Part shown: positions 5,180 to 50,271 of the stretch, piece after piece
Numbering within the stretch: position 1 is the first letter of the stretch
Layout of the letters: each line of letters starts with the position of its first letter
DNA from: a virus
Taxonomy: Duplodnaviria; Heunggongvirae; Uroviricota; Caudoviricetes
Reading direction: 5' to 3' (one strand)
IMG/VR virus record: IMGVR_UViG_3300045988_134234
Span: 1 to 55,008 of that record
Length of the DNA stretch: 55,008 nt
Translations under genes and position numbers: made by a program
Notes under the pieces: generated by a model
The model's input: the letters and a program-made list of their open reading frames with translations, nothing else
What the model was told of the DNA's origin: nothing
Databases searched by the model: none

Positions 5180-5202
5180 TGTTAGAAAATTAATTTATTA
5201 AT
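5180..5202. promoter_or_regulatory. operator-like motif TGTTAGAAAATTAATTTATTAA
   Basis: Member of a dispersed motif family (more than 12 copies) located at promoter regions. Confidence 0.4.
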
Positions 5203-5810: not shown

Positions 5811-5840
5811 TGTTAGAAAATCAAAATTGATTTTCTAACA
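5811..5840. promoter_or_regulatory. 30-bp near-perfect palindromic operator TGTTAGAAAATCAAA/ATTGATTTTCTAACA
   Basis: Inverted pair of the dispersed motif between divergent Ref-like gene and the 5882.. operon. Confidence 0.6.
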
Positions 5841-10413: not shown

Positions 10414-10443
10414 TGTTAGAATATTGATTTTAATTTTCTAACA
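10414..10443. promoter_or_regulatory. operator-like inverted pair TGTTAGAA...TTTCTAACA
   Basis: Between phosphatase gene and the 10486 gene. Confidence 0.5.
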
Positions 10444-24771: not shown

Positions 24772-24786
24772 TACATTTTCTAATAG
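24772..24786. promoter_or_regulatory. operator-like motif (ACATTTTCTAATAGG)
   Basis: Inverted relative to the 24860 copy, upstream of candidate repressor gene. Confidence 0.4.
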
Positions 24787-24859
24787 GAACAATCAAAAAA
24801 AAGCGGTTTTATCCTTTACTCACCTTGTTATTCAGCATAAATTTGTCACAGGACTTTTA

Positions 24860-24875
24860 TGTTAGAAAACTAAAT
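24860..24875. promoter_or_regulatory. operator-like motif TGTTAGAAAACTAAAT about 12 nt upstream of the 24888 ATG
   Basis: Motif immediately precedes RBS/start of the 345-aa gene. Confidence 0.45.
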
Positions 24876-24887
24876 CGAGTAGGAATA

Positions 24888-25925
24888 ATGAGTAAGAAGT
24901 CGATCGAGAATGAGTACAAACGGTTCCTGCAAACCGCTGAACGGTGGAAAGAGCTGGTGGTCGCAAACTCTGTTTTCCATGATACCAGTTATGTTGGCGA
25001 GGAATTTCGCCATGTTGCATTAACACATGATCCGGCTGTATTAGAAGAAGCTGAAAAATGCATAGCCGAATGGAAAGCCTTTGTTGATCTGTGTCGCAAG
25101 GATGATGACAAAGCCTCAAACATTGTTGAGTCGGTTTATTTACCGATCCCATTCATTGTTGAGGATACTAATCAGAGTACGCATATCGTTATGCAAAGCG
25201 CAACCACAACGAGAACATTTACGCGCGAAGACCTGCTGAAAAAATACGATAAAACTATAAAGAAAAGCATGAAAAACAGGATATTTTCACAGGTTGTCGG
25301 TGCGCTTGAAGAAGAACGCAGATTCTTCGCCGCTGAACGTGAGGGCGAGGTATACCGCGCAAGAAAAGAAGGTTATACCGATGTGGTGATTACCACCAAT
25401 ATCGAGGGCAACAATGGACTTTCACGCTTCAGAGTGGGTACGCACGGTGCGCTGATCTTTGCCAGAAAAGCAAACACAGAGATTCCCGTTGTTAACAACG
25501 TTGGTGAGCGCCGCACCCTTACCATTTACACTGGCATTAAACCGCTTCCGTGCGGACTTCTCGGCGAATTTGACCTTTATCGGGTTCGTGATCTGGAAAA
25601 GCAGCAGCCAAGCTATGTCGTGAAGTCATATATCCTGAGAAACATTGATATCCGCAATCAGAGTTTAAAAAACAAATCAGATAAAATGCTGGCCGAAGCC
25701 GATCCAGCCATACACCAGATCGTTAGCCGGAAAATTCAAGAGGCTAAAGATGCAATGGCAAGGCTGGATAAAATGGACCTGGAACTACTGGAAGTTATGA
25801 TTGCCTCCGGCGATGACCTGACAGGCATCCGCCTTACTGAAGCCAGGAAAAAATACGGTAAAAGCGTTGAAGAACGCTATGGGTACACATTCACACAAAC
25901 GATGTACGCGGCAAAACTCTGGTAA
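24888..25925 (+). CDS. hypothetical protein; candidate master repressor by position and operator context
   Basis: Internal ATG (Met22) of ORF 24825..25925 with AGGAA RBS; between lox/cre and terminase, convergent with pacB; no sequence-level family assignment possible. Confidence 0.35.
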   Translation: MSKKSIENEYKRFLQTAERWKELVVANSVFHDTSYVGEEFRHVALTHDPAVLEEAEKCIAEWKAFVDLCRKDDDKASNIVESVYLPIPFIVEDTNQSTHIVMQSATTTRTFTREDLLKKYDKTIKKSMKNRIFSQVVGALEEERRFFAAEREGEVYRARKEGYTDVVITTNIEGNNGLSRFRVGTHGALIFARKANTEIPVVNNVGERRTLTIYTGIKPLPCGLLGEFDLYRVRDLEKQQPSYVVKSYILRNIDIRNQSLKNKSDKMLAEADPAIHQIVSRKIQEAKDAMARLDKMDLELLEVMIASGDDLTGIRLTEARKKYGKSVEERYGYTFTQTMYAAKLW

Positions 25926-29301: not shown

Positions 29302-29331
29302 TATTAGAAAATTAATATTAATTTACTAACA
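29302..29331. promoter_or_regulatory. operator-like imperfect palindrome TATTAGAAAATTAAT/ATTAATTTACTAACA
   Basis: Upstream of the 29224 start. Confidence 0.5.
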
Positions 29332-33259: not shown

Positions 33260-33289
33260 TGTTAGAAAGACAATTCTAATTTTCTAACA
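33260..33289. promoter_or_regulatory. operator-like inverted pair TGTTAGAAA-N12-TTTCTAACA
   Basis: Perfect 9-bp arms; downstream of the 402-aa gene, at the head of the non-coding tRNA island. Confidence 0.5.
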
Positions 33290-44005: not shown

Positions 44006-44218
44006 TCAAGTTACGATCCAATCATTACCGACTGCATCCGCCGTCGATAAATCGACTTCCCGGATCTGGTATCCATTGATACAAAACCATCCAGTAGTAG
44101 AGCTATTATCAGGCCAGACCCATACACCAACACTCCATGCTTTACGGCGGCACACTTCAGCCTGTCCTTCCCTGATTTTTTTTACCGCCTGCATGATGTC
44201 CATCACTCGCCTCCCCAA
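44006..44218 (-). CDS. DUF2829-like small protein (separate ORF; fused to Rha-like gene in the first module)
   Basis: AVKKIREGQAEVCRRKAW...VWVWP...NDWIVT parallels C-terminus of 3237..4163 product; overlaps upstream ORF by 16 nt in a different frame. Confidence 0.4.
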   Translation of the reverse strand: MGRRVMDIMQAVKKIREGQAEVCRRKAWSVGVWVWPDNSSTTGWFCINGYQIREVDLSTADAVGNDWIVT

Positions 44219-44910
44219 CCGATTACCTGGAATTGCCCCATCCTTGGGTGATACCAGCGTTTTCCTCGGTGTTCAGCCTCCGACATCATCAGGGTAAAGG
44301 CATTCATGAAGGGAGATAAGGCCACAATAGTACGACGCGACAATACCCCCTCTGGCGTCAAAAACTCATGCGTATCTGTGGGGATCCGGTAAGCGTTGAC
44401 CAGGTTGCGGCATTTGGCTTCAGTCAGGCCGCATTTCGCCGCCAACTGGCGATAGCCAATGTAGCCTTCTGGTATGTTGCCTTTCTTGATCTGCTCGACG
44501 GTTTCAGCGACCTGGCTAACCTTTGACTCAACAGCATGAAGCCGCTTTTGCTGCTGAACTGCATTCGCAGCCATTGCAGCGATCATCTCTATTTCGGTCA
44601 ACGGCTGGCGTACTTGTTCTTCCAGTTCGCGCCAGCGGTCCACCAGCCGGGCGGTGAATTCGGGAGAGAGCTGCGCGACGACGATAATGCTATCGCGCTT
44701 GCCTTGCTCGCCTTCGAAGACGTAAGCCTCAACACTACGTCGTAGTCCTAAGTTATTGATTTTTTCGAAAACCTCAATTTGAGGACGAACAATAACGCCA
44801 CCTTTGGCTAATGTCTCAATAGTGCGTTTCACATTGTCATGACGTTTTCCCACCAGCTCCGCGATCTCAATGCTGGTCATTGATGGCTTTTCGAGAATGC
44901 AGATATCCAT
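44203..44910 (-). CDS. Rha-family regulatory/antirepressor-like protein (paralog of 3237..4163)
   Basis: IEIAELVGKRHDNVKRTIETL; long stretches identical to the first module. Confidence 0.6.
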   Translation of the reverse strand: MDICILEKPSMTSIEIAELVGKRHDNVKRTIETLAKGGVIVRPQIEVFEKINNLGLRRSVEAYVFEGEQGKRDSIIVVAQLSPEFTARLVDRWRELEEQVRQPLTEIEMIAAMAANAVQQQKRLHAVESKVSQVAETVEQIKKGNIPEGYIGYRQLAAKCGLTEAKCRNLVNAYRIPTDTHEFLTPEGVLSRRTIVALSPFMNAFTLMMSEAEHRGKRWYHPRMGQFQVIGWGGE

Positions 44911-45134
44911 CAGTGAGCCTCCGCAATGCCGGGATTGGTAATATTGCGATACCAGGGATTGGTGTTTGGTTGTGGGGAAGTAGAGAAACGACCAGTGAGA
45001 ACGCCATACTGATCAGGGATCAGAGAACGGGCTTCTTTTTCAGTTGCGGCAATTGCGAAGTGATCGCAGTGTTTTTGCAGGGAGTGAAAACGCCAGATGA
45101 ATTCTGGACGTGAGCAAGGATTGGCATTAACCAT
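44910..45134 (-). CDS. small protein (paralog of 4163..4378)
   Basis: EFIWRFHSLQKH...AIAATEKEARS. Confidence 0.5.
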   Translation of the reverse strand: MVNANPCSRPEFIWRFHSLQKHCDHFAIAATEKEARSLIPDQYGVLTGRFSTSPQPNTNPWYRNITNPGIAEAH

Positions 45135-45159
45135 AGTTACGGCCTCGTAAGTTGATAAA

Positions 45160-45360
45160 CAACCTGCGACCCGCTGTCAAACAGGTGGCAGGACGTGACA
45201 GGGTTGACAGACTGGCACTTACGAAACCAGCAGGCCGAAGCCTCCCCATCACGCCCCACCATAATTCGGGCGTAACGTGGTTTTACGGACACAAAAATAC
45301 CGCAATATCGGAAATGTGCGGTTGTCCGCGTAAGTATTCAGGCTGTCAAACCTGGTCGCA
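45160..45360. repeat. TGTCAAAC / GTTGACAG short repeats in leader region
   Basis: CGCTGTCAAACAGG, GGGTTGACAGACTGG, GGCTGTCAAACCTGG: two direct copies plus one complementary copy. Confidence 0.4.
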
Positions 45361-45462
45361 GAATTTGCTACGACGGCATGAATATAAGCCTGAACATTAG
45401 AAAGATCAACAGAATTTTTATCAAATGCTGTTTTTTAGTGACAATGTAAATCATACATTCTT

Positions 45463-45491
45463 GATTAGAAACATCAATTTAATTTTCTAAC
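45463..45491. promoter_or_regulatory. operator-like inverted pair GATTAGAAA...TTTTCTAACA (plus a single copy at about 45395..45410)
   Basis: Upstream of second Icd/Ant-like module. Confidence 0.5.
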
Positions 45492-45549
45492 ATACATTTT
45501 CGAGCGATGAAATTCCCGCCGCACGGTTATTGTACAGTCAATCGCAACA

Positions 45550-46497
45550 TCATCCCCGAAAGCCCTCCGGAATTGACCAGTCTTCCCGGTCAAATTCAGA
45601 CCTATAGCCACGCTGTTTCATCAGGTCAAATGCTTCATTGATGGTTGCACATCCCTGGGAAGCAGAATAATCCATAGAGAAATCCAGGGCGCTGGATCGT
45701 TTGGGCTTATTCACTGTGGTAGCACTACGTAACCATGCAAATTTTTTTGCCAGTTTTTCAGCGGTACGATACAGAGCCTGCCGTTTTGCGTACCCCTCGT
45801 CTGAACGACGCTTTGCAGCTCTCGCTTTTGCTGCCGCCAGGCAGTGGTTGGTATGTTCTTCCCTGATTACTGTCAAGCCATTATCCGCTTGAGAACTATC
45901 TGCTGGTGAAGCCTTTGGCTGAACCGCGCATGATCTTTCTCTTCTTTTGGCTATAGAGTGACTCTTATTTTCTATTGGCTGTTCATTTTGAACATGGGGG
46001 GACTTGTTCAATTTGAACAGGGGGTTCCCAGTTTCAAAAAAATAACGAACCTTTGAAATCAACTGCTTAACCAGTTTTGTGGCGTTGGCAAATTTGATGC
46101 CCTGCTTACTCCCTATCTCCATTGCTACATGAATGAAGTGGAGAAATTGTGTTGTAAACCGGTACACGTTACACACCTGAGCATTGTTATTCGCTACCTG
46201 ATGCTGCTTAACAAGCATTCCGCACTTCGTCGCTTCGGTAAATGCCCGGCGCACAGTAGAAATACTGCGTCCTGTAATCTCGGACATATCAGCATATGAG
46301 CGACGGATCATGTATTCATCGGTAGCTCCTGCCAGGTTGGCGAACTCGGCAATAATGGCGCTATGTGAAGGGGAAAGAAAACCGCTATGACGAGCAAAAA
46401 AACTCAACTGATGACCTTTGATTTTTTTGTGGTATTCAGTGTTGTTTTTATACTCAGAAGTGTTGAAAGTAACTGAAACTGAATTTAAAATACTCAC
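45550..46497 (-). CDS. HTH-containing protein; candidate replication initiator (speculative)
   Basis: HTH-like MSEITGRSISTVRRAFTEATKCGML; own operator-bearing promoter; repeats downstream. Confidence 0.3.
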   Translation of the reverse strand: MSILNSVSVTFNTSEYKNNTEYHKKIKGHQLSFFARHSGFLSPSHSAIIAEFANLAGATDEYMIRRSYADMSEITGRSISTVRRAFTEATKCGMLVKQHQVANNNAQVCNVYRFTTQFLHFIHVAMEIGSKQGIKFANATKLVKQLISKVRYFFETGNPLFKLNKSPHVQNEQPIENKSHSIAKRRERSCAVQPKASPADSSQADNGLTVIREEHTNHCLAAAKARAAKRRSDEGYAKRQALYRTAEKLAKKFAWLRSATTVNKPKRSSALDFSMDYSASQGCATINEAFDLMKQRGYRSEFDREDWSIPEGFRG

Positions 46498-46669
46498 CAG
46501 ATAGTTCCGTGAAAAATCTATCTACCGTATAAATCTATGCCAGTGGATTTATACACCCAAAAGCCGCTACTCAGCGGCTTTTGCTTTTTTTGGCAGTCGC
46601 TACCGAAGCAGTGACCGCGATCCTACTCGATCACGTGCCGTCGGATCAACAGTGTATAAAAACACACTG

Positions 46670-46693
46670 TGTTAGAAAATTAAGCTAGCTTTT
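46670..46693. promoter_or_regulatory. operator-like motif TGTTAGAAAATTAAGCTAGC
   Basis: In the 200-bp gap upstream of the 46497 start. Confidence 0.45.
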
Positions 46694-46696
46694 AGC

Positions 46697-47695
46697 TCAC
46701 ATCCTCTTAGACACAAAGATCAGCGGAGTCACCGTCTTGTTCTCTTTCACCGGTATTTCTTGTTGTTTATTGGCTGATATTGGCAGACCATAAGTGGCAT
46801 TAGCCCCTAGGGATTCAAGCATCGCTGCGACAATGCGTGCATCATCCTCTGACTGCATACGGCAGAGCGCCCGGCGCTGTTCTGCGCTGATAAAAACAGG
46901 CATTTCCTGGATAGCATCACGCAAAATACGGCGGCATTTCTTCGCGTTCTCCCCCTGGCTTTCCATCATCGCGGCCTGGTCGCGTAGTTTGTCGCGAAGC
47001 TGCATATTTTCCACTTCAAGATGTATCAGTTCCGACTCCAGAACTTCACGTTGTGCTGATTCGAATATGGCTTGCTGACTCTTCATTGCTGAAAAGTGGT
47101 GAACCAGATCCGTAGCAGCATTATCGGTAAAACCTTGTTCGATAAGTGCCGCATGAATCGCCGCGTCGCGTTCTTCTGCTGATTCAAGCATCAGGCTTTT
47201 CTTGTCGAGGCTGATATAGTTAGGCACAGTTACGTAATCAAAACCGTGAAAAGACTTTACCAGGGATACAGAGTAATCTGGACCAGATGTAGCCCATGAC
47301 CAACCACCTGCGCCAGAATTAATCATACCCTGAACAATACGTCCGGTGTCCGTATCCAGTATTTCCTGTGTATGGGTAACAATGCCGTTGTCGTCAATTG
47401 AAATGTCGATAGTCCTGTTTGACGGCACGTTCTCCAATACAACAGGCTTCCCATCTACCATCACAACAGAGACTTCCGGCAAGTCCAGGCTTTTCGTTTT
47501 GTTATAGTGCATCGCCCGGCGACCATGACCGTAATAACCATACATCTCACCCAGTGCGATACGCTCTTTTGTTTCTGGCGAGTTGAATGTGTCTCGTACC
47601 GACTGGATAACGTAATTGCGATTGTTCTGAGGTGTGTGTTTGCGGATTTTCTCTACCAGGGAGAAGCGATCCGTAACGGTATTCAGTGATTGCAT
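46697..47695 (-). CDS. putative prohead protease/scaffold-like protein (Pro-like position)
   Basis: Globular N-terminal half plus C-terminal coiled coil; adjacent to portal-sized gene; assignment by context only. Confidence 0.3.
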   Translation of the reverse strand: MQSLNTVTDRFSLVEKIRKHTPQNNRNYVIQSVRDTFNSPETKERIALGEMYGYYGHGRRAMHYNKTKSLDLPEVSVVMVDGKPVVLENVPSNRTIDISIDDNGIVTHTQEILDTDTGRIVQGMINSGAGGWSWATSGPDYSVSLVKSFHGFDYVTVPNYISLDKKSLMLESAEERDAAIHAALIEQGFTDNAATDLVHHFSAMKSQQAIFESAQREVLESELIHLEVENMQLRDKLRDQAAMMESQGENAKKCRRILRDAIQEMPVFISAEQRRALCRMQSEDDARIVAAMLESLGANATYGLPISANKQQEIPVKENKTVTPLIFVSKRM

Positions 47696-49626: not shown

Positions 49627-49809
49627 GTGAAGTATTCAGAGTTCAAACGCTGGTTAATCCAGCAAGGGGCAGAGTTCAGGAAAGCGCCAGGTGGCGGCAG
49701 TCATCAGAAAGTGAACCTGAACGGAAAGCGGTCGGTTTTCCCGGACCACGGTTCAAAGGAAATGCCTGAACCGCTACGCAAGAAAATAATGAAGGACCTG
49801 GGGCTTTAA
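49627..49809 (+). CDS. hicA: HicA toxin (mRNA interferase)
   Basis: 60 aa; KYSEFKRWLIQQGAEF...GGSHQKV...PLRKKIMKDLGL matches recalled HicA; GTG start after AAGGA. Confidence 0.85.
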   Translation: MKYSEFKRWLIQQGAEFRKAPGGGSHQKVNLNGKRSVFPDHGSKEMPEPLRKKIMKDLGL

Positions 49810-49839: not shown

Positions 49840-50271
49840 ATGTTTAACTATCCGGTAAAACTGGAGCGCGACGACAAAACCGGCGCGTATGTCGTATCAT
49901 GCCGCGACCTACCATTGTTTAATTCCGTGGGTGACTCAGTTGAAGAAGCGTTGCTTGAGGCTGGTTATGGATTGGTCGCAGCGGTTGCGATTGAGATTGA
50001 AGAACGCCGACCTGTTCCCACTGGTAGCGAGCCAAAAGAAGGTGAGTACGTTGTCTCTTTGCCAGTGCTACCAGCAATGAAGGCTGCACTCCACAACGCG
50101 ATGATAGAAACCGGCACACGCAAAGCAGAGTTGGCGCGCAAACTCGGAAAAAATGGAACACAGATTGATCGGCTTCTCGACGTCGAACATTCATCGAAAG
50201 TTGAAACTGTCGAGCTGGCACTGCATCAACTGAATAAAAATATCGCCGTATCTGTCACACCAATGCGGTGA
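49840..50271 (+). CDS. hicB: HicB antitoxin
   Basis: N-terminal MFNYPVKLERDDKTGAYVVSCRDLP HicB fold signature plus C-terminal HTH-like region (ELARKLGKNGTQIDRLL). Confidence 0.8.
   Translation: MFNYPVKLERDDKTGAYVVSCRDLPLFNSVGDSVEEALLEAGYGLVAAVAIEIEERRPVPTGSEPKEGEYVVSLPVLPAMKAALHNAMIETGTRKAELARKLGKNGTQIDRLLDVEHSSKVETVELALHQLNKNIAVSVTPMR

What the first reader, a model, noticed from the sequence alone, without database searches (positions are those of the whole stretch)
45160..46497. HTH protein gene with its own operator-bearing promoter and downstream short repeats: candidate lytic replication module
Gene 45550..46497 has an HTH-like segment and sits behind an operator motif (about 46670). 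The region after its stop contains TGTCAAAC-type repeats. This resembles a repressor-controlled replication initiator with adjacent iterons or origin, though the repeats could instead belong to the leader RNA of the neighbouring Ant-like module.
Basis: inference. Interest (0 to 1): 0.45.

Follow-up and report, generated by a model that had tools for sequence, protein, structure and literature searches.

The report
RepL lytic replicon beside C4 immunity
This part of a D6-like phage-plasmid encodes a homologue of the phage P1 lytic replication initiator RepL, whose origin most likely lies inside the gene. The short repeats after the gene are target sites of the neighbouring C4 antisense-RNA immunity switch, not replication iterons, so the module is ordinary and already annotated in public records.

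Summary
ORF 45550..46497 (-) has a winged-HTH N-terminal domain. A perfect copy of a 14-nt operator motif lies at 46670-46683. GCTGTCAAAC occurs twice after the stop codon.

The window is a D6-like P1-family phage-plasmid. The protein is 94% identical to D6 orf20, annotated as similar to P1 repL, and 29% identical over its full length to P1 RepL (E 7e-31). It is therefore a RepL-type lytic initiator, already annotated in more than 100 plasmids.

The downstream repeats are not iterons. They are the b1 and b2 targets of a C4 antisense RNA, supported by Rfam C4 and c4-a1b1 matches above threshold. In 27 related sequences, a1/a2/a' and b1/b2/b' co-vary in five specificity types.

By homology with the P1 oriL mapped in 2023, the origin is probably inside repL at 45931-46049. 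It consists of a T-rich run, two 25-bp-spaced dyads (C-run + TGTTCA-N3-TGAACA) and an A/T-rich stretch ending in GATC. It sits in the codons of a predicted disordered linker.

Upstream inferences, all untested: a promoter whose hexamers carry GATC, TTGATC-18-TAGGAT(C), conserved in five lineages; a bidirectional hairpin terminator; and a possible 96-nt antisense RNA.

The parts
45550..46497 (-). repL homologue, 315 aa, GTG start. N-terminal winged HTH (aa ~20-157), predicted disordered linker (aa 162-211), C-terminal helical domain ending WSIPEGFRG.
45931..46049 (-). Candidate lytic origin (oriL) embedded in the linker codons; inferred by homology with the P1 88-bp minimal target.
46025..46049 (-). 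T-rich run (72% A+T), in the position of P1 AT1.
46005..46024 (-). Dyad unit 1: CCCCC TGTTCAAATTGAACA, read as NPLFKLN.
45980..46001 (-). Dyad unit 2: CCCCCC A TGTTCAAAATGAACA, read in a different frame as SPHVQNEQ. 17 of 18 bases match P1 unit 1.
45931..45977 (-). A/T-rich stretch (68% A+T) ending AAAGATCA. Colinear with the P1 AT2 region, the proposed DNA unwinding element (DUE).
46670..46683 (-). Operator motif TTAATTTTCTAACA, presumed site of the D6-type C1 repressor. It ends 20 bp upstream of the -35 hexamer.
46650..46669 (.). Inverted repeat CAGTGT-N8-ACACTG between the operator and the -35 hexamer.
46620..46649 (-). Candidate repL promoter TTGATC-18-TAGGAT. Its hexamers are conserved in 5 lineages while the spacers differ. 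GATC sites at 46644-46647, 46629-46632 and 46619-46622.
46558..46592 (.). Bidirectional intrinsic-terminator hairpin in the repL leader, stronger on the + strand.
46527..46554 (.). Dyad or hairpin GTATAAATC-N10-GATTTATAC. Pairing is kept in L028 through 2 compensatory changes.
46463..46491 (+). Antisense promoter-like site TTGAAA-17-TAAAAT inside codons 2-11 of repL.
46498..46593 (+). Predicted 96-nt countertranscript across the repL start codon and leader (inferred, not observed).
45463..45492 (.). Bivalent-like operator in front of c4: perfect half 45479-45492 (+), degenerate half 45476..45463 (-). Positional counterpart of P1 Oc4/Op51.
45381..45477 (-). Two tandem promoter-like sites for immI: TTGATG-16-TATGAT and TTGATC-17-TATATT.
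45335..45387 (-). c4-a1b1 element (a1 45329-45335, b1 45342-45351). Holds the first TGTCAAAC copy.
45181..45266 (-). C4 antisense RNA (a' 45217-45223, b' 45202-45210).
45146..45182 (-). a2 (45146-45152, abutting the icd Shine-Dalgarno sequence) and b2 (45173-45182) targets. Holds the second TGTCAAAC copy.
44910..45134 (-). icd homologue.
44203..44910 (-). Rha/Ant-type antirepressor.

Best explanation
The region holds two adjacent, separately known modules of a D6-like P1-family phage-plasmid.

Module 1 is a RepL-type lytic replicon. The repL gene is expressed when the prophage repressor (a divergent C1 homologue) leaves the operator at 46670-46683. RepL then most likely starts theta replication at an origin embedded in its own coding sequence at 45931-46049. 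That origin consists of a T-rich run, two dyad-symmetric sites 25 bp apart (C-run + TGTTCA-N3-TGAACA) and an A/T-rich unwinding stretch ending in GATC. I propose the dyads are bound by dimers of RepL's winged-helix domain.

Expression probably comes from a promoter whose hexamers carry GATC (Dam) sites, TTGATC-18-TAGGAT(C). It may be damped by a leader terminator and a ~96-nt countertranscript.

Module 2 is the immI operon (c4-icd-ant), lying after the repL stop codon. The TGTCAAAC repeats there are the b1 and b2 sites on the mRNA. Loop b' of the C4 RNA pairs with them to block icd/ant expression.

What is shown here: the homologies, the RNA-family matches, the covariation, and the conservation of the DNA architecture. 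What is inferred: replication activity, RepL binding to the dyads, promoter identity, Dam sensitivity and the antisense RNA.
For: Identity of the element: 92.5% nucleotide identity to phage D6 and 98.7% to an E. coli plasmid, with the gene annotated as lytic replication protein.

RepL homology: 94% identity to D6 orf20. 29% identity and E 7e-31 to P1 RepL over the full length, including the C-terminal W-IP-GFRG. tblastn finds only RepL genes among phage records.

C4 system: Rfam C4 69.6 bits (gathering 45) and c4-a1b1 55.2 bits (gathering 46.7). In 27 sequences, a1 = a2 = the reverse complement of a', and b1 = b2 = the reverse complement of b', across 5 specificity combinations.

Internal origin:
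- P1 oriL lies within repL. An 88-bp fragment made of the second C-run/dyad unit plus AT2 suffices in trans, and AT2 is essential (PMC9948254).
- The window has the colinear architecture.
- Each of 6 lineage representatives has exactly one matched dyad pair, 24-25 bp apart, always in the linker. Only 1.3-1.9% of shuffled genes show such a pair.
- The arm sequence differs by lineage: GTTCA, TGTCA or GATCA.
- In the window and in L028 the two units are read in different reading frames.
- Synonymous codons at aa 152-190 are identical in 21 of 23 cases, against 86 of 176 elsewhere, between the window and L028 (p 8e-5).
- The linker is predicted to be disordered.

Regulation: operator enrichment; a C1-like ORF preceded by operator-like sites; the pattern TTTCTAAY-N21-TTGATY-N17/18-TAGGATCG is found in 4 lineages, and a fifth (L033) keeps the promoter hexamers and the downstream hairpin without the TTTCTAA operator core; the antisense promoter hexamers are identical in L028 despite 5 spacer changes; the predicted RNA folds with z -6.4.
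Against: - No experiment exists for any D6-type RepL. Function rests on 29% identity to P1 RepL.
- The operator does not overlap the core of the best-conserved promoter candidate, unlike P1 Op53, so the repression mechanism is unclear.
- A terminator hairpin lies between that promoter and the gene.
- In P1, the first dyad unit is dispensable in the trans assay, and no construct separates unit 2 from AT2. RepL binding to the dyads is therefore untested.
- The region used for the synonymous-site test was partly chosen after seeing the data.
- GC skew shows no switch at the locus.
- Covariation support for the leader hairpin comes from a single lineage.
- The structure is symmetric, so it fits the sense RNA, the antisense RNA or a DNA palindrome equally.
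Confidence: 0.8

Rival explanations
1. The TGTCAAAC-type repeats downstream of the gene are iterons or an origin bound by the HTH protein.
For: There are two exact 10-nt direct copies 169 bp apart, plus an inverted partial copy.
Against: All copies fall inside Rfam C4 and c4-a1b1 matches above the gathering score. They co-vary three ways with the C4 loop in relatives. The same segment is about 88-90% identical to P1 immI, which sits far from repL in P1. L028 and L087 have repL without this segment.
Confidence: 0.03
2. The protein is an ordinary HTH transcription regulator, not a replication initiator.
For: Only a weak HTH_36 Pfam match. Fold searches give MarR, ArsR and TFE-like winged helices. 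NCBIfam gives no hit.
Against: Full-length homology to P1 RepL, including the C-terminal domain and the terminal GFRG. The P1-like intragenic origin architecture is conserved. PHROG matches to replication initiators are weak but present.
Confidence: 0.07
3. The double dyad is only the DNA shadow of a repeated peptide (PxxQN[DE]) or an old duplication with no cis-acting role. The origin would then be just the A/T-rich stretch, or lie elsewhere.
For: Most family members show the doubled peptide. In P1 the first unit is dispensable, and only AT2 was shown to be needed.
Against: In the window and in L028, unit 1 is read in another frame (NPLFKLN), yet it keeps the DNA motif. Synonymous sites are frozen there. 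Dyad symmetry is kept while the arm sequence changes between lineages. The encoded peptide is predicted to be disordered.
Confidence: 0.25
4. The leader hairpin is merely the terminator of the upstream late operon (prt-pro), and the + strand promoter-like site is a chance match. No antisense RNA controls repL.
For: The hairpin lies 115-140 nt after the pro stop codon. Promoter-like sites are not enriched in the region: 4 found against 2.9 expected. The antisense promoter is not evident in the L087 lineage.
Against: The promoter matches 10 of 12 consensus positions, and both hexamers are unchanged in L028 while 5 spacer bases and 3 codons changed. The predicted RNA has three hairpins with z -6.4. 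P1 has an annotated antisense promoter at the equivalent place in kilA.
Confidence: 0.45

Closest known systems
Phage P1 lytic replicon (P53/Op53, kilA, repL, oriL inside repL, antisense promoter P53as)
   Same: Homologous initiator with full-length alignment. The origin-type architecture sits at the same place inside the gene: T-rich run, two C-run/dyad units, then an A/T-rich stretch ending in GATC. A repressor operator lies upstream. GATC sites occur in the promoter region. An antisense promoter lies just inside the first gene.
   Different: Only 29% protein identity. There is no kilA. The module sits after pro and upstream of immI, rather than downstream of ant. The operator has a different sequence: the P1 consensus gives 0 matches. 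The operator lies 20 bp upstream of the -35 hexamer instead of over the -10. The dyad arms are TGTTCA rather than TGTCA. There is no TTATCCACA DnaA box. A terminator hairpin sits in the leader.
Phage D6 orf20 and the 'lytic replication protein' of D6-like plasmids
   Same: 94% protein identity, the same neighbours (pro, repL, c4, icd, ant) and a conserved intergenic region.
   Different: Small in-frame indels in the linker and C-terminal part. The sequence just after the stop codon is unrelated between the window/CP104667 pair and the D6 group. The C4 a-type matches some relatives and differs from others.
P1/P7 immI operon: C4 antisense RNA (Rfam RF01695), a1b1 (RF03163), icd, ant
   Same: About 88-90% nucleotide identity to P1 over c4 and icd. 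Same order: operator, two promoters, a1b1, c4, a2b2, icd, ant. Three-way covariation is present.
   Different: The window's a-specificity is ACTTACG; in P1 it is GTTAGTG. The antirepressor is a 235-aa Rha/Roi-type protein, not P1 Ant1/2. The operator sequence is the D6 type.
RepA_N plasmid replicons of Gram-positive bacteria (pSK41)
   Same: It works like one. A ~315-aa initiator has an N-terminal winged-helix DNA-binding domain, a central linker encoded by the origin and its repeated binding sites, an essential C-terminal domain, and a small antisense RNA against the leader (review PMC5703833; here).

Membership tests
P1 RepL family (Pfam PF26868 Phage_P1_RepL) | Full-length sequence homology to P1 RepL | tested here: met
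   BLASTP E 7e-31, 29% identity over residues 28-315. The precomputed PF26868 is recorded on the 99%-identical cluster representative. The local Pfam copy lacks this model.
P1 RepL family (Pfam PF26868 Phage_P1_RepL) | Conserved motifs: STVRRA recognition helix, N-Y-F, AAAKA, and the C-terminal W-IP-GFRG | tested here: met
   Invariant columns in the 13-sequence alignment that includes P1.
P1 RepL family (Pfam PF26868 Phage_P1_RepL) | Origin (oriL) located inside the gene, with an essential A/T-rich AT2 region | tested here: inconclusive
   Colinear sequence architecture, frozen synonymous sites and a conserved dyad pair are present. Origin function itself cannot be tested with these tools.
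P1 RepL family (Pfam PF26868 Phage_P1_RepL) | RepL-dependent amplification of DNA carrying the gene | not testable with these tools
   Needs the in vivo assay of PMC9948254.
P1 RepL family (Pfam PF26868 Phage_P1_RepL) | Expression under the prophage repressor (C1 operator at the promoter) | tested here: inconclusive
   A perfect copy of the enriched operator motif is present and conserved, and a C1-like ORF is in the window. However, the operator lies upstream of the best promoter candidate rather than over it.
C4 antisense RNA system (Rfam RF01695 and RF03163) | Covariance-model score above gathering for C4 and for a1b1 | tested here: met
   69.6 against 45 bits, and 55.2 against 46.7 bits.
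C4 antisense RNA system (Rfam RF01695 and RF03163) | Loops a' and b' complementary to a1/b1 upstream and a2/b2 at the icd ribosome-binding site, co-varying between heteroimmune relatives | tested here: met
   Five specificity combinations occur in 27 sequences, and they always match at all three sites. a2 abuts the icd Shine-Dalgarno sequence.
Iteron-plasmid Rep proteins (Rep_3/RepA-RepE, WH1-WH2) with external iterons | Rep_3-type sequence or a two-winged-helix fold, plus tandem iterons beside the gene | tested here: not met
   No Pfam hit at E <= 0.1. The model shows one winged helix followed by a long helix. The repeats beside the gene are C4 targets.
RepA_N initiators (PF06970) | RepA_N domain homology | tested here: not met
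   No Pfam hit for the window protein or for P1 RepL. Structural similarity is no better than to generic winged-helix regulators.
Firmicute plasmid RepL (PF05732) | PF05732 domain | tested here: not met
   No hit at E <= 0.1. The shared name is coincidental.

The most novel reading that the evidence does not exclude
Three linked proposals:
1. Across the whole P1-RepL family, the lytic origin is a conserved cassette written into the codons of a disordered linker: a T-rich run, two dyad-symmetric initiator sites 24-25 bp apart, and an A/T-rich unwinding stretch.
2. The dyad arms are lineage-specific (TGTTCA, TGTCA or GATCA) and are the long-sought RepL binding sites. This design is convergent with Gram-positive RepA_N plasmids.
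3. In kilA-less members such as this one, initiator supply is set by a promoter whose hexamers carry GATC (Dam) sites, a leader terminator and a ~96-nt countertranscript.
Probability: 0.45. Interest if true: 0.5.

Novelty: already known. Interest (0 to 1): 0.3.

Why it matters
As an annotation, this settles the locus. It is the lytic replicon and the immI antisense switch of a D6-like phage-plasmid, a group common in E. coli and Salmonella. At least 105 PLSDB plasmid records hold most of the region.

The useful by-product concerns P1. The exact oriL and the RepL binding site have been open questions since 1989 and were only narrowed to 88 bp in 2023. The cross-lineage comparison here points to specific bases, the dyad arms, that can be mutated or swapped. 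This matters because RepL/oriL is used as an inducible copy-number amplifier in synthetic biology.

Tried and rejected
- The P1 C1 operator consensus ATTGCTCTAATAAATTT gives no match within 3 mismatches. The element uses a different operator.
- Pfam, NCBIfam and PDB sequence searches give nothing specific for the protein.
- The genome-contig scan found no relatives. Loci came from the viral-contig scan and from one encoding-contig look-up instead.
- The GC-skew profile shows no polarity switch at the locus.
- The pSa1423 record is riddled with indels and was ignored for fine comparison.
- The D6 genome paper was not found in the library. Lobocka 2004 and Heinrich 1995 are not held. Their content is cited only through GenBank annotation and through PMC9948254.
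- An operator-overlapping promoter (TTAATT-16-TTTTAT with an upstream TG) was considered. It has weaker consensus and weaker cross-lineage support than TTGATY-17/18-TAGGAT, so it remains undecided.
- A promoter between the hairpin and the start codon (CTGGCA-17-TAGATT) was rejected because it is not conserved in L028.

Full report
**What the window is**

Window 44816-46683 is 92.5% identical to Escherichia phage D6, a P1-related plasmid prophage. Window 45100-46750 is 98.7% identical to an E. coli plasmid, NZ_CP104667. A match to at least part of that stretch is found in 575 plasmid records, and 105 of them hold at least 80% of it.

D6 annotates the genes of this stretch as follows:
- darB-like helicase
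- CHAP lysozyme
- orf17
- antirepressor
- icd-like
- 'lytic replication protein, similar to P1 gene repL'
- pro
- prt

**Check of the observation**

The ORF 45550..46497 (-) exists and is 315 aa. Its HTH is supported by a sub-threshold Pfam HTH_36 match. It is also supported by a confident winged-helix domain at residues ~20-157 in an AlphaFold2 model.

The 'operator motif' is TTAATTTTCTAACA at 46683..46670. The window has 23 matches with up to 3 mismatches, against 6.5 expected, and no shuffle reached that number. Several matches are divergent pairs separated by 2 nt, which resembles the bivalent C1 operators of P1. The P1 operator consensus itself is absent. A weak C1 homologue (21% identity, E 1e-5) is encoded at 24906-25598, directly behind operator-like sites. 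The motif is therefore most likely the site of a divergent C1-type repressor; this is an inference.

GCTGTCAAAC occurs at 45173 and 45342, and an inverted partial copy at 45202. The 8-mer is not enriched in the window as a whole.

**The gene**

The protein is 94% identical to D6 orf20. It aligns over its full length with P1 RepL: 29% identity, E 7e-31, and a shared C-terminal W-IP-GFRG. tblastn against phage records finds only RepL genes. The precomputed Pfam family of its cluster is PF26868, Phage_P1_RepL.

The family is small. Only 53 cluster representatives reach E <= 1e-3 among 1.84 billion proteins.

No solved structure is related beyond generic winged helices.

**The downstream repeats**

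Rfam places a C4 antisense RNA at 45181-45266 (69.6 bits) and its a1b1 target element at 45335-45387 (55.2 bits). Both are on the minus strand and above the gathering score. This segment is about 88-90% identical to P1 immI. P1's annotation gives the same order: operator, two promoters, a1, b1, c4, a2, b2, icd, ant.

The two TGTCAAAC copies are b1 and b2. The inverted copy is loop b' of C4.

Among 27 D6-like and P1 sequences there are four a-types and two b-types, in five combinations. In every sequence, a1 = a2 = the reverse complement of a', and b1 = b2 = the reverse complement of b'. This three-way covariation shows the repeats are RNA-RNA pairing sites, not protein-binding iterons.

Relatives with repL but without c4 nearby (L028, L087) show that the two modules are independent.

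**Where the origin probably is**

In P1 the lytic origin lies within repL. Huan et al. 2023 (PMC9948254) showed three things:
- Eleven synonymous changes in a 43-bp A/T-rich region (AT2, repL nt ~497-540) abolish amplification.
- An 88-bp fragment suffices in trans.
- The IHF site and the DnaA boxes are dispensable.

They noted a preceding C/G-rich sequence of unknown role, and they could not say where RepL binds.

That 88-bp fragment begins with CCCCCTCCCCC TGTCAGGATGACG. In P1 this is the second of two units; the first is CCCCC A TGTCAAAATGATA.

The window's repL has the same layout at the same place:
- a T-rich run
- CCCCC TGTTCAAATTGAACA
- CCCCCC A TGTTCAAAATGAACA
- a 47-bp stretch of 68% A+T ending AAAGATCA

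Apart from the YRFT codons, blastn between the two genes shows colinear nucleotide matches mainly in this cassette.

Six lineage representatives each carry exactly one matched dyad pair, 24-25 bp apart, always in the linker. Only 1.3-1.9% of shuffled genes have any such pair. The arm sequences differ between lineages: GTTCA, TGTCA or GATCA.

Four further results indicate selection on the DNA, not on the peptide:
- In the window and in L028 the two units are read in different frames, NPLFKLN against SPHVQNEQ.
- Codons for identical residues at aa 152-190 are the same in 21 of 23 cases, against 86 of 176 elsewhere (p 8e-5).
- The encoded residues 162-211 are predicted to be disordered.
- More distant family members show the same doubling in the linker peptide.

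I therefore place the candidate oriL at 45931-46049 and propose the dyads as binding sites for RepL dimers. This last step is an inference.

The layout parallels pSK41-type RepA_N replicons: an N-terminal winged helix, an origin encoded by the linker, a C-terminal domain and an antisense RNA (PMC5703833). Membership of that family was tested and not met.

**Upstream control (inferred)**

Four lineages share TTTCTAAY-N21-TTGATY-N17/18-TAGGATCG, followed 30-45 nt later by a bidirectional hairpin terminator. A fifth lineage, L033, keeps the TTGATC-17-TAGGATCG hexamers and the hairpin but lacks the TTTCTAA operator core. The hexamers are conserved while the spacers are not, which is the signature of a promoter.

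GATC overlaps both hexamers in the window. This recalls the three Dam sites annotated at P1's kilA promoter.

Unlike P1 Op53, the operator lies upstream of this core promoter, so how repression works is open.

On the plus strand, TTGAAA-17-TAAAAT (46463-46491) matches 10 of 12 consensus positions. Both hexamers are unchanged in L028, although the spacer and three codons differ. A transcript from there to the terminator would be 96 nt. It folds into three hairpins (dG -33.5, z -6.4) and is complementary to the repL start region. The middle hairpin keeps its pairing in L028 through two compensatory changes.

P1 has an annotated antisense promoter just inside kilA. The title of Heinrich et al. 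1995, seen in the reference list of PMC9948254, states that the P1 lytic replicon is controlled by an antisense RNA.

The evidence here is thin: one divergent lineage and a symmetric structure. I give the antisense RNA about even odds.

**Verdict**

The finding is real and its core reading, a repressor-controlled replication initiator, is right. However, the module is already annotated in D6 and in many plasmids.

The origin is inside the gene rather than beside it.

Novelty of the locus is nil. The comparative pointer to the RepL binding sites is a modest, testable addition.

Noticed in passing
window 24825-25925 (+), with operator-like sites at 24772-24785 and 24860-24873: This ORF has a weak match to the P1 C1 repressor (21% identity over 241 aa, E 1e-5). 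It is probably the repressor that reads the TTAATTTTCTAACA operators. Pfam gives no hit.
   Followed up: partly
window 5811-5840, 10414-10443, 29302-29331, 33260-33289: These are divergent pairs of the operator motif separated by 2 nt, similar to P1 bivalent operators. Further single copies lie at 5180, 23463, 24860, 33126, 34521 and 35576.
   Followed up: partly
window 49627-49809 and 49840-50271 (+): A HicA toxin / HicB antitoxin pair (Pfam E 1e-9 and 6e-13) next to the portal gene.
   Followed up: partly
loci L007-L027, L001, L004-L006 (c4 region): D6-like elements carry at least five C4 specificity types: four a-types by two b-types. One type is identical to P1. This implies heteroimmunity groups within one phage-plasmid lineage.
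   Followed up: partly
window 45498-45549 compared with D6 and CP088573: The ~50 bp just after the repL stop codon are unrelated between the window/CP104667 pair and the D6 group. The flanking repL and operator sequences are conserved, which suggests a recombination joint between the replicon and the immI cassette.
   Followed up: no
L087 2500-3406 and L029 (Raoultella/Klebsiella/Enterobacter RepL lineage): In this lineage the two linker dyads are GATCA-N3-TGATC, giving four Dam sites in about 45 bp inside the candidate origin. The origin itself may be methylation-sensitive there.
   Followed up: no
L028 and L087: The gene order prt-pro-repL-CHAP-darB occurs without c4-icd-ant. The immI cassette appears to have been inserted between repL and the CHAP gene only in D6-like elements.
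   Followed up: partly
window 45293-45374 (-): A sub-threshold Rfam match to isrK (45.5 bits, gathering 50) overlaps the a1b1 element. It probably reflects relatedness of c4-type leader regions.
   Followed up: no
L003 (NZ_MK356557.1, pSa1423-90k): This public record has many homopolymer indels that split repL into fragments annotated as separate hypothetical proteins. It looks like sequencing error rather than biology.
   Followed up: no
P1 repL nt 447-455 (L002 3673-3681) compared with window 46025-46049: P1 has a perfect DnaA box, TTATCCACA, immediately before dyad unit 1. L033 has a near-perfect one. The window has none at that position.
   Followed up: no
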